From an uncultured Nitrospiraceae bacterium (GTDB taxonomy: Bacteria > Nitrospirota > Thermodesulfovibrionia > Thermodesulfovibrionales > Dissulfurispiraceae): DNA of 64,000 nt. The stretch spans positions 128,001 through 192,000 of the forward strand of contig CAVPIW010000007.1 in assembly GCA_963705105.1 (NCBI GenBank), written 5' to 3'. The position numbers were made by a program. Shown here piece after piece: positions 27,001 to 29,729 of the stretch (position 1 is the first letter of the stretch; each line of letters begins with the position of its first letter).

Positions 27001-29729
27001 GACCTCCGCCACTTCCGGACGGCTGAACTGGGACGATACCTCTTCACCATCGGAGAGCATCTTCCGCAGCTTCGTCCCGCTCAGGAGCACCCTGTCATCC
27101 TTGCCGTGCGGGCAGGTCTTCATGGAGGCCATGCCGTCGCACTTCTTGCAGTAAAAGGTCCAGTCGATGTTGAGAGGCTTCGTCTCCAGTGCGTCCTTCG
27201 GGATCTCAAGGAAGATCTTCTGGGCGTCGAAGGGACCGTAGTACTCGCCCACGCCGGCGTGGTCGCGGCCGATGATCATGTAGCTGCAGCCGTAGTTCTG
27301 CCTGAAGGTGGCGTGGAGAAGGGCCTCACGCGGTCCGGCATACCGCATGTCGAGCGGGTAGCCGGCCTGGATGCAGGTCTTCGGGACGAAATAGAGTTCG
27401 ACGAGCTTGTTGATCGCCTTAACCCTGACTTCGGCGGGGATGTCGCCGGGTTTGAGTTTACCGAGGAGCTGGTGGATGAGGACGCCGTCGCAGATCTCGA
27501 TGGCGACCTTGGCAAGGAATTCGTGGGAGCGATGCATGGGGTTCCTGAGCTGTAGGGCGGCAACGGTGTTCCAGCCCATATCCGTGAACATCTTCCTCGT
27601 CTCGGCGGGGGTAAGGAAGAGACCGGGATAATCGCGCGGGAACGTGCCCAGGCTCAGGACCTTGACGGGACCGGCAAGGTTGACCTCTGCCTGCTCCATG
27701 ACCATCTTCACGCCGGGATGCTCCGTATCAGTGGTCTTGTAAATGTTCTTGCATTCGAACTCTTTGTCGATCGAGTACTTCTCGGTGACCTTCATGGTCG
27801 CCATGGTTTCTTTGAAATCATCGGAATAGAGAGCGATTTCTTCCCCTATCTTGATGCCGTCGGCGGCCGCCTTGGGCACAGAAACAGTGATCGGAATGGG
27901 CCAGAACGTGCCGTCGGCCATCTTGAAGTCGGCGCAGACTCCCTTCCAGTCGGCCTGGGTCATGAAGCCCGTCAGCGGGGTGAATCCGCCGATGCCCATC
28001 ATGATAAGGTCGCCGGATTCGCGCGATGCGATGTGGACTTTCAGCAGTGACTCAGCCTTTCTTGACTCCTCCGCGAATTCCGCGCCGGTCACAAGGAGAG
28101 GCATTAATTTCTTTGCTTTACCGTGGGGGTTTACCAAAGCCATAGTCGATCCTCCTCAAATGTATTTTTTTCAAGCCAAAACCATACTGAACCGTTAAAC
28201 GCCGAGGGCGCTGCAGACTTTCCCGAAGATATCGTCGATGCTCCCGGTGCCTGCGACGGATTTCAGGATTCCCTTGTTCTTGTAATAATCGAAGAGGGGA
28301 GCCGTCTGGGCGGTGTAGACGTCGAGTCTCTTCTTGATCGTCGCCTCCTTGTCGTCGTCCCTCTGGAAGAGCTCTCCTCCGCACTTGTCACAGACGCCAT
28401 CCTTCTTGGGCGCCGAGAAGTACAGATTATACATCTGTCCGCAGGCCTTGCATGTCCTCCGGCCTGTCAGCCTCTTCATGAGGTCCTCCATGGGGACATC
28501 GACGCTGAGCGCGGCCGTCAACGGCATGCTCAGTCCCGCGAGCATCTTGTCGAGGGCCTCAGCCTGGGCGGTGTTTCTGGGGAAACCATCGAGGATGTAT
28601 CCCTTTTTGCAGTCGTCCTTTTTCAGTCTCTCTTCGACCATACCGAGGACGACGCTGTCCGGCACCAGTTCACCCTTATCCATATAGGACTTCGCTTCTT
28701 TTCCGAGCGCCGTCCCTGCACCCACAGCCGCCCTGAGAAGATCGCCCGTGGATATCTGGGGAATGGGGTACTTATCGACAAGCTTTTTCGCCTGAGTTCC
28801 CTTGCCTGCACCAGGTGCACCGAGAAGGACTAATCTCATGGAAGAACCTCCAAGTGGAATTATTTTGAGGCATCTATAAATTACTGAAAAGGAAAAATTA
28901 ATGCAATTTTAAAATTTAAATCAGCACATTAAAATTACTTATATTCCTGTTCATGAAGGCCTGTCAGATATTGCTTCAGCTGTTCAAGCGCCATTCTGCG
29001 GTGGCTGAGAGCGTCTTTTTCATCGGGTGACATTTCTGCGAAGGTCCTGGCGTGTCCCCGGGGGAAAAAGACTGGGTCATAACCGAAACCGGACCTGCCC
29101 CGGGACTCACGGGCAATGGTTCCCTCCGCTAAACCCCGGAATAATACAACGTTCCCTTCCGGAAATGCAAGGGCGAGACAACACACGAACCGGGCGCCTC
29201 TTGAGCCGTCTGCGACGCCCTTCATCTCATCAAGGAGTTTGACAATGTTGGCCTCGTCACCGGCGCACTCACCGGCATATCTGGACGAGTAGACACCCGG
29301 AGCGCCTCCCAGGGCATCCACCTCGAGCCCCGAATCGTCGGCGACGGACAGGCGCTGCGAACAAAGTGCCGTCTCGACGGCCTTTTTCGTCGCATTGCCC
29401 TCAAAGGTGTCCCTGTCCTCCGCGACATCGGTGCATGCCGGAAATGCATCGACGGAAAGTACGGTCACATCGACACTGCGGAGCATCCGCTCCAGTTCTT
29501 CTACCTTTTTTCTGTTCCTGGTGGCGAGAACGATGTCCATGGTCCGTTAGCGGGCACGCATCGGCTCATGCCGGCGAACCGGCGCAGCGCGGAATGGAGA
29601 TTGATGAAACCGGGTTATGGAATAGAGGCCCAGCAAAACGAAGTAAGATAGCATTCCGGGCAGGCAAAATGCAAATCCCGCAAGGCCTGAGTTGACAATC
29701 ACCGGAGGCATTGTTTAAGCTAAACATCA

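What a model noticed while it worked through the whole genome (the two positions that open the first line are those of the whole stretch)
28901..28942. One tandem LysR-type operator in front of the sat-aprBA-qmo, dsrAB and dsrC-dsrMKJOP promoters
The three core operons of dissimilatory sulfate reduction share one conserved upstream site, ATAA-N7-TDAT-N6-NTWW-N11 directly abutting the -35 box (two T-N11-A dyads, the LysR activator layout): at C7:156901-156942 (adk-sat-aprBA-qmo), C2:36285-36326 (dsrAB) and C2:42145-42186 (dsrC-dsrMKJOP). It is kept across Thermodesulfovibrionales and defines a sulfate-respiration regulon. The best candidate regulator is the CysL/YeiE-type LysR g02869 (C11:80515-81441).
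Evidence so far: Pattern (up to 2 mismatches) before dsrA in 24 of 25 loci and before adk-sat in 19 of 22, own genome included. A matrix from these sites ranks adk-sat, a site at C17:60414, dsrA and dsrC as the top four of all upstream regions here; dsrC was not in the training set. A matrix built without this genome and without dsrC scores over 15 bits before dsrC in 23 of 25 loci, against 0 of 30 glt, 0 of 22 aprB and 0 of 20 lysR leaders. In five relatives searched whole, all 8 matches lie at dsrA, dsrC or adk-sat promoters; reversed control 0. g02869 is found in 29 of 30 order genomes while selD is found in 11 of 25; its best Swiss-Prot hit is B. subtilis CysL and it keeps the T-T, N-T, E, R-E-x-G-S-G-T [...]
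(Added by a program. Inside this text positions count along the whole contig: contig position 128,001 is position 1 of the stretch shown here. "Call 12" and the like, gene names such as g00115 and contig names such as C1 are that model's own, and its searches are not shown. The text may have been shortened before it was handed on; [...] marks where a part breaks off. The agent that wrote the report below was given it as the finding of a first reader that could run no searches.)

Follow-up and report, generated by a model that had tools for sequence, protein, structure and literature searches.

The report
Predicted LysR switch for sulfate respiration
A paired DNA site sits just before the promoters of the sulfate-respiration operons in a large group of Nitrospirota bacteria, and comparative evidence points to one conserved LysR-family regulator, related to known sulfite sensors, as the protein that binds it, although binding has not been shown.

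Summary
The site is real. Two 15-bp dyads (ATHA-N7-TDAT) lie 6 bp apart, and the second ends at the -35 hexamer. It precedes adk(-sat), dsrA and dsrC in 39 of 48, 42 of 49 and 43 of 50 leaders from the order. Of 109 whole-genome pattern hits, 90 lie at these leaders. The layout matches published LysR-type activator sites centred near -65 and -44.

New evidence for the regulator:
- The g02869 clade carries the same dyad over its own promoter: 21 of 33 leaders, 2.6 expected.
- It is the only LysR in three site-bearing genomes.
- The one genome tested with no LysR lacks all three sites.
- Rex was found in 1 of 81 genomes.

Corrections: the site extends beyond the order, and the paralogues do not share the pocket. 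This genome's g02869 has Gly at the sulfite-selecting Glu position, which 43 of 53 orthologues keep.

Against: two incomplete genomes have sites but no orthologue, and one family has the orthologue but no sites. There are no binding or transcription-start data. The scan's earlier notes hold no such finding.

The parts
28928..28942 (-). Distal dyad (LysR-type recognition site, T-N11-A), centre about -64 from the inferred start; overlaps the last codons of rdgB in this genome
   Evidence: half-site columns near-invariant at both adk and dsrA, sharp left edge
28922..28927 (-). 6-bp spacer, fixed length, variable sequence (21 bp between dyad centres)
28907..28921 (-). Proximal dyad (activation site), right half degenerate at adk, near-perfect at dsrA and dsrC; ends at the -35 hexamer
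28901..28906 (-). Inferred -35 hexamer TTGCAT
   Evidence: TTG at this offset in 29 of 30 adk sites; start of transcription not mapped
28878..28883 (-). Inferred -10 hexamer TAATTT, 17 bp spacer; the promoter matches 8 of 12 consensus bases by my count and is not listed by the consensus scan (threshold 9)
28935..29540 (-). rdgB-type XTP/dITP diphosphatase, upstream gene
   Evidence: NF011397 at cut-off
28195..28839 (-). adk, first gene behind the site
   Evidence: NF001380
26929..28143 (-). sat, sulfate adenylyltransferase
   Evidence: TIGR00339, NF003166
26331..26750 (-). aprB
   Evidence: TIGR02060
24331..26313 (-). aprA
   Evidence: TIGR02061
19646..24193 (-). qmoA, qmoB (HdrA-like) and an Fe-S protein taken as qmoC by position
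   Evidence: the qmo names are inferred from HdrA similarity and gene order
17399..19477 (-). hppA, proton-pumping pyrophosphatase, last gene of the likely operon
   Evidence: PF03030; stays directly behind adk where sat-apr-qmo is missing

Best explanation
The 36-bp element is a tandem operator for one LysR-type regulator, the YeiE/CysL-like g02869 clade (C11:80515-81435 here). A tetramer would hold the distal dyad near -65 and the proximal dyad near -44, beside the -35 hexamer, and activate otherwise weak promoters of adk-sat-aprBA-qmo-hppA, dsrABD and dsrC-T-MKJOP. A dyad over the regulator's own promoter would repress its own gene. In most lineages the likely signal is sulfite, which would tie both halves of sulfate respiration to their shared intermediate. 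In this genome and family f10 the pocket is altered and the signal may differ.

Shown: sites, geometry, specificity, co-occurrence, pocket residues. Inferred: binding, activation, start sites, ligand.
For: Geometry: centres at about -65 and -44 with the second dyad adjacent to the -35, as given for GcvA (-65/-43) and OxyR (-66/-44) in PMC5002191 (passages) and for LysR regulators generally in PMC11495319 (passages). An 18-bp spacer fits 42 of the dsrA and 36 of the dsrC training sites (42 and 44 sites).

The site follows its genes. It sits directly before sat in 5 genomes, appears as a second copy between adk and sat in G004, G052 and G005, and precedes a Desulfobacterales-like dsrA in 2 of 15 loci L268-L282.

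Own-promoter dyad: exact match in the last 70 nt of 21 of 33 orthologue leaders, 2.6 expected. Of the 12 without it, 8 lie directly behind rnpB. In this genome it fills the -35/-10 spacer (C11:81475-81461); 3 of 304 A/T-rich leaders score as high.

G003, G016 and G040 each have one LysR, it falls in this clade, and they have the dsrA and dsrC sites. G073 has no LysR and none of the three sites. G120 and G129 lack the orthologue, sat and the sites. G065 and G011, with no dsrA or sat found, keep both the orthologue and the adk site.

Pocket: Asn126, Arg191 and Ser195 equivalents in 53 of 53, Thr197 in 52, Glu145 in 43 (residues from PMC8931317).
Against: There are no binding, mutant or transcription-start data; the RNA runs found were contigs with at most 0.28 of the words.

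G148 (96% complete) and G053 (91%) have sites but no full orthologue. Family f20 (2 genomes) has the orthologue but no site at dsrA or sat. f17 has it before sat only, and strongly in 1 of 3. All 7 f4 adk leaders lack it, and G013 lacks it at dsrA and dsrC.

The dsrA and dsrC promoters resemble each other beyond the operator, so they may be duplicates rather than independent witnesses. G120 and G129 carry a divergent dsr set (about 53% identity), so their joint absence is loss of the whole native system. 19 of 109 pattern hits lie elsewhere, in unrelated A/T-rich promoters or coding DNA. The own-promoter dyad is absent from the last 70 nt in 7 of 7 leaders outside the class.

NCBIfam files g02869 under NF040786, selenium-associated, and its best full-length PDB match is a cyanobacterial Rubisco-operon regulator.
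Confidence: 0.7

Rival explanations
1. The same LysR binds the site, but it is a near-constitutive activator or mainly a repressor, or it senses something other than sulfite (sulfate, APS, a selenium compound).
For: The proximal dyad is near-perfect at dsrA and dsrC, whereas activation sites that allow sliding are usually weaker (PMC11495319 passages). I saw no conserved third site in the column profile. The site stays before adk-hppA in two genomes without sat or dsrA. The Glu145 position is Gly or Ser in 10 of 53. g02869 passes the NF040786 cut-off.
Against: The site ends at the -35 hexamer and does not cover it, and the promoters are sub-consensus. The oxyanion pocket is strictly kept. selD was adjacent in 2 of the 30 orthologue loci L039-L068 (1.5 kb flanks).
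Confidence: 0.16
2. Another protein binds the site: a LysR paralogue, Rex, or an unrecognised regulator.
For: G053 and G148 have sites without a full orthologue. I did not screen all regulators for the same presence pattern.
Against: Rex domain in 0 of 1 own and 1 of 81 order genomes. Paralogues are absent from G003, G016 and G040. Neither paralogue leader here has the exact dyad. The dyad sits on the orthologue's own promoter. Both counter-examples are fragmented assemblies.
Confidence: 0.08
3. It is promoter architecture only: an A/T-rich UP-element-like tract read by RNA polymerase, shared by strongly expressed respiratory operons.
For: The site is A/T-rich with a T tract at about -47 to -41; off-target hits mostly precede TTGAC promoters.
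Against: Half-site columns are fixed while spacers vary and differ between operons. The left edge near -72 lies beyond the UP-element range (range recalled). 16 of 19 A/T-rich-upstream promoters here score below zero. Shuffles with the same composition rarely score. The dyad also occurs inside the lysR promoter spacer, where a UP element has no role.
Confidence: 0.06

Closest known systems
YeiE (Cronobacter, Salmonella), sulfite-sensing LysR regulator; PDB 7ERP/7ERQ/7FDF
   Same: Pocket residues align. YeiE binds sulfite and Glu145 excludes sulfate (PMC8931317, parts 1-2 of 6 read). It represses its own gene and activates yeiH (PMC12880088, passages).
   Different: g02869 is far below the YeiE model cut-off (190.9 against 480 bits). 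Targets here are respiratory operons at distant loci, not sulfite-tolerance or assimilation genes. This genome and family f10 lack the Glu.
Bacillus subtilis CysL
   Same: LysR activator of a sulfite reductase operon, with a similar pocket by alignment in PMC8931317 and a table entry in PMC11495319.
   Different: CysL controls assimilatory cysJI.
Tandem LysR operators of GcvA and OxyR
   Same: Two 15-bp inverted repeats at about -65 and -44, the second adjacent to the -35; GcvA's is ATTA-n7-TAAT (PMC5002191, passages).
   Different: In those systems the operator is shared with a divergent regulator gene; here the regulator sits in a housekeeping cluster and has its own separate dyad.
Rex regulon of Desulfovibrio
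   Same: Similar target set: sat, qmo, adenylate kinase, pyrophosphatase, with predicted sites at dsrABD, aps and dsrMKJOP (PMC4045070, passages).
   Different: Rex is a redox-sensing repressor; a rex mutant changed targets less than 2-fold and did not induce dsrABD or dsrMKJOP (same paper). Rex was found in 1 of 81 genomes of this order. The LysR clade was not found in 81 genomes of the phylum holding Desulfatitalea (best 43%), and the site was not found in 65 loci around their dsrA.
LysR_Se / HrsM, NF040786
   Same: g02869 scores 288 against a cut-off of 250; selD is its neighbour here.
   Different: PMC5322559 (passages) defines the subfamily by occurrence only with SelD and by a conserved proline. 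The C6 paralogue has a proline in the first pocket loop where g02869 and its orthologues do not; that this is the paper's proline is my inference, as its figure S5 was not seen.

Membership tests
LysR-type activator operator | T-N11-A dyad with symmetric flanks | tested here: met
   ATHA-N7-TDAT in both dyads
LysR-type activator operator | Recognition site near -65, activation site adjacent to the -35 | tested here: met
   Fixed offsets to inferred -35/-10 hexamers; starts inferred, not mapped
LysR-type activator operator | Negative autoregulation site on the regulator's promoter | tested here: met
   21 of 33 leaders against 2.6 expected; 10 of 18 in a second set that repeats one genome; sequence only
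LysR-type activator operator | Third, ligand-free site overlapping the promoter (sliding dimer) | tested here: inconclusive
   No conserved third dyad seen in the column profile; not all LysR systems have one
LysR-type activator operator | Protein binding and ligand-dependent activation | not testable with these tools
   Needs gel shift, footprint or reporter
YeiE/CysL-type sulfite sensors | Pocket Ser96, Ser97, Asn126, Ser127, Arg191, Ser195, Thr197 | tested here: met
   Asn, Arg, Ser195 in 53 of 53; Thr197 52; Ser96 39 (Gly 13, including g02869); Ser/Thr at 97 in 49 and at 127 in 45
YeiE/CysL-type sulfite sensors | Glu145 selecting sulfite over sulfate (clade consensus) | tested here: met
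   Glu in 43 of 53; register fixed by 7ERP against its E145S mutant 7FDF
YeiE/CysL-type sulfite sensors | Glu145 in this genome's g02869 | tested here: not met
   Gly147 at that column; Ser in 9 genomes of family f10
YeiE (NF040889) | Score above the curated cut-off | tested here: not met
   190.9 against 480 bits
LysR_Se / NF040786 | Score above the curated cut-off | tested here: met
   288.1 against 250 bits
LysR_Se / NF040786 | Occurs only with SelD; conserved proline | tested here: inconclusive
   selD adjacent in 2 of 30 loci; I did not search selD genome-wide; proline position inferred
Rex regulon | Rex protein present | tested here: not met

The most novel reading that the evidence does not exclude
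Sulfate-reducing Nitrospirota run their whole respiratory pathway from one sulfite-activated LysR master switch, a feed-forward alternative to the Rex repressor of Desulfovibrio. Family f10 and this genome have naturally made the Glu-to-small-residue change that lets engineered YeiE hold sulfate, and so sense sulfate instead.
Probability: 0.3. Interest if true: 0.8.

Novelty: new variant of a known kind. Interest (0 to 1): 0.62.

Why it matters
How sulfate reducers control their core respiratory genes is poorly resolved: in Desulfovibrio, loss of Rex moves some targets less than 2-fold and leaves dsrABD and dsrMKJOP unchanged (PMC4045070, passages). This finding names a regulator, an operator and a likely ligand for a separate phylum-level group that lacks Rex, all testable with purified protein and a heterologous reporter. 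It would extend sulfite-sensing LysR proteins from assimilation and detoxification to energy metabolism. Presence or decay of the site might also help read whether dsr genes in uncultured Nitrospirota are natively wired.

Searches listed no paper describing it, judged from titles and abstract starts. The library holds open-licence papers only, and RegPrecise could not be searched.

Tried and rejected
Rex: not found. Paralogues as regulator: absent from f4 genomes, different pockets, no exact dyad in their leaders. Coding constraint from the rdgB overlap: the site lies downstream of other genes or in clear intergenic DNA in relatives.

A wider regulon: 18 off-target hits were read and no target recurs across families. 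Weaker candidates in this genome at C8, C6, C13 and C16 precede unrelated genes. Spread outside Nitrospirota: 0 of 63 dsrA leaders at 10 bits with the adk+dsrA matrix (1 of 63 with the dsrC matrix) and no orthologue; sat and apr leaders of that phylum were not examined.

The 44-aa ORF behind the C17 site: no Pfam, meaningful NCBIfam or Atlas match, not found in 80 other order genomes; its genomic context elsewhere remains unknown. The consensus promoter scan listed only a + strand match with no gene behind it. No structure or complex prediction was run.

Full report
Observation. On the minus strand, window 28942-28901 holds a 15-bp dyad, 6 bp, a second 15-bp dyad and the hexamer TTGCAT; a -10-like TAATTT follows 17 bp on, and adk starts at 28839. 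The genes behind it are adk, sat, aprB, aprA, two HdrA-like genes and an Fe-S gene (qmoABC by order), and hppA. The C2 sites lie on the + strand before dsrA and dsrC in one cluster dsrAB-D-N-...-C-T-MKJOP (dsrMKJOP named from ORF order, not family-searched).

Conservation. I searched 81 genomes of the order for dsrA, sat and dsrC. For each gene I read the 30 best-scoring loci plus 20 chosen for family coverage, so the sample is not random. One dsrA leader was too short and two sat loci had no adk. With matrices that leave out the test genome's family, 39 of 48 adk, 42 of 49 dsrA and 43 of 50 dsrC leaders score 15 bits or more. With matrices that also leave out the test operon, 29 of 48, 45 of 49 and 45 of 50 score 8 bits or more. 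Half-site columns are near-invariant in both adk and dsrA sets, the spacers vary, and conservation starts sharply at the first base. The consensus is ATHA-N7-TDAT, 6 bp, ATHA-N7-TDAT, then TTG.

Specificity. An adk-only matrix without the -35 finds 22 of 48 dsrA and 17 of 50 dsrC leaders at 10 bits, against 1 of 144 and 1 of 150 shuffles. In this genome a matrix from relatives ranks the window site, C17, dsrA and dsrC on top. Among 19 sigma70-like promoters with A/T-rich upstream DNA, 3 reach 10 bits. An exact pattern over 50 genomes gave 109 hits, 90 at the three leaders. The 19 others include C17 and a dsrC-type promoter at a contig end; the rest are mixed and do not recur across families. 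The reversed control (0 hits) is weak, because real promoters are enriched in TTG after A/T-rich DNA.

The site travels with its targets. It stands directly before sat in 5 genomes and is doubled in G004, G052 and G005. A full copy precedes a Desulfobacterales-like dsrA in L276 and L281, 2 of 15 such loci, while 65 other loci (708 kb, mostly titled Desulfobacterales or Deltaproteobacteria) have no hit at 15 bits. Outside the order it occurs before dsrA in f14 and f15 and in f19: 14 of 21 loci at 15 bits or more and 5 more keeping three half-sites; of the other 2, G120 has none and G108 is cut off at a contig end. It occurs before adk or sat in f14 (1), f16 (2 of 2) and f19 (5 of 5). In f17 it is before sat only: 18.9 bits in one genome, weak in two. 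It was not found in f20.

Geometry. Counting from the inferred hexamers, the dyad centres fall at about -65 and -44. PMC5002191 (passages) gives -65/-43 for GcvA and -66/-44 for OxyR, with the second repeat adjacent to the -35 and used for activation. PMC11495319 (passages) gives the T-N11-A rule, the -65 anchor and negative autoregulation. The dsrA and dsrC promoters have 18-bp spacers and adk mostly 17 with weaker -35 boxes; the window promoter falls below the consensus scan's threshold. Activation is inferred from this; no start was mapped.

Regulator. This genome has three LysR proteins and a ModE-like fourth hit, and no Rex domain; Rex was found in 1 of 81 order genomes. The g02869 clade is present at 45-76% identity in 79 of 81, counting second-copy and contig-end matches. 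It usually lies in a housekeeping cluster near rpoD, rnpB and rnhA (neighbours read from ORF starts, rnpB confirmed). Four lines tie it to the site.

First, its own leader has the exact dyad in 21 of 33 cases against 2.6 expected; 8 of the 12 others sit directly behind rnpB, 3 are f4 and 1 has a mismatch. Here the dyad fills the -35/-10 spacer at C11:81475-81461. Second, G003, G016 and G040 each hold a single LysR, it groups with this clade (96/96), and all six f4 genomes with it have the dsrA and dsrC sites. Third, G073 (99% complete) has no LysR domain and lacks all three sites; G120 and G129, the latter one contig, lack the orthologue, sat and the sites. Fourth, G065 and G011, with no dsrA or sat found, keep the orthologue and the site before adk-hppA while their dsrC sites have decayed. 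Among 85 genomes outside the order, by my count have both orthologue (50% identity or more) and dsrA, 3 dsrA only, 1 orthologue only and 47 neither; these are a few clades, not independent trials. No orthologue appeared in 81 genomes of the phylum holding Desulfatitalea (best 43%).

Against. G148 and G053 have sites but no full orthologue; G053's remnant lies mid-contig. Both are fragmented assemblies, which may or may not explain it. f20 has the orthologue without sites, f4 lacks the adk site, and G013 lacks the dsr sites. The own-promoter dyad is absent from the last 70 nt in 7 of 7 leaders outside the class, though 3 of 4 f19 leaders have one 79-144 nt upstream. The dsrA and dsrC promoters may be duplicates.

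Ligand. PMC8931317 (parts 1-2 of 6) lists the YeiE sulfite pocket and shows that the E145S mutant crystallises with sulfate. Alignments to 7ERP and 7FDF fix the register. Among 53 orthologues, Asn126, Arg191 and Ser195 are invariant, and Glu145 is kept in 43, is Ser in all 9 f10 genomes and is Gly in g02869. This genome and f10 group together with moderate support (94/91). Sulfite is therefore the best guess for the clade and is doubtful for this genome. NCBIfam's selenium label is weakened by selD adjacency in only 2 of 30 loci and by the missing proline discussed in PMC5322559 (passages; its supplementary figure was not seen). The FinR site in PMC5302815 (passages) has different bases. YeiE autorepression is from PMC12880088 (passages).

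Comparison and verdict. It works like a classical LysR activator system; by sequence it meets the operator criteria, but g02869 is not YeiE by the curated cut-off. Its targets parallel the Rex regulon of Desulfovibrio (PMC4045070, passages) under a different regulator. Searches (listings only, apart from the papers named) showed no description of it; closed-access papers and RegPrecise were not covered. I rate the operator reading about 0.9, the regulator about 0.85, and the full activator model 0.7. It is a new variant of a known kind, interest 0.62.

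Noticed in passing
G000 C17:60455-60414 (-) and L003:10314-10180: The fourth top-ranked site precedes a 44-aa ORF of an unnamed small-protein family (52 representatives at 50% clustering; conserved His, Asn, His, Glu, Tyr), then a purH-like gene. 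The ORF was not found in 80 other order genomes.
   Followed up: partly
G000 C6:1-80000; also C4: The first 80 kb of contig C6 has high GC and 16-42 simple-repeat runs per 20 kb against 0-1 elsewhere, and holds a second sat-like match at 21371; it looks like eukaryotic contamination or a misjoin. C4 is also repeat-rich.
   Followed up: partly
L039-L068 pocket columns; g02869 residues 98 and 147: This genome and family f10 share Gly at the Ser96 position and a small residue at the Glu145 position followed by Glu; a possible natural ligand switch.
   Followed up: partly
L263-L267: A second copy of the clade (55-59% identity) occurs in several families at unrelated loci, twice beside a biotin-carboxylase-like gene pair; one of five leaders has the exact dyad.
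   Followed up: partly
L005:1683-1742 region (G000 C14): The paralogue divergent from a tungstate/oxyanion-binding-like gene has a different dyad, ATGA-N7-TCAT, about 82 nt upstream, a candidate for its own operator.
   Followed up: no
L001:12280-12321 (G000 C2:36320-36279, -): The dsrA site also reads as a strong match on the opposite strand, one base from a TTGACC-17-TACAAT promoter for the divergent smc gene.
   Followed up: no
L243, L248, L249 (G040): Three off-target hits in one f4 genome share the site plus a near-identical promoter with a C run; possibly lineage-specific targets or a repeated element.
   Followed up: no
L150, L151 (G065, G011): Two near-complete genomes without dsrA or sat keep dsrC followed by dsrM- and dsrK-like genes, and adk directly joined to hppA.
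   Followed up: partly
L268-L281 leaders: Family f12-type dsrA genes have a long N-terminal extension and a conserved purine-rich GGGGGTGA motif about 220-250 nt upstream of the matched start.
   Followed up: no
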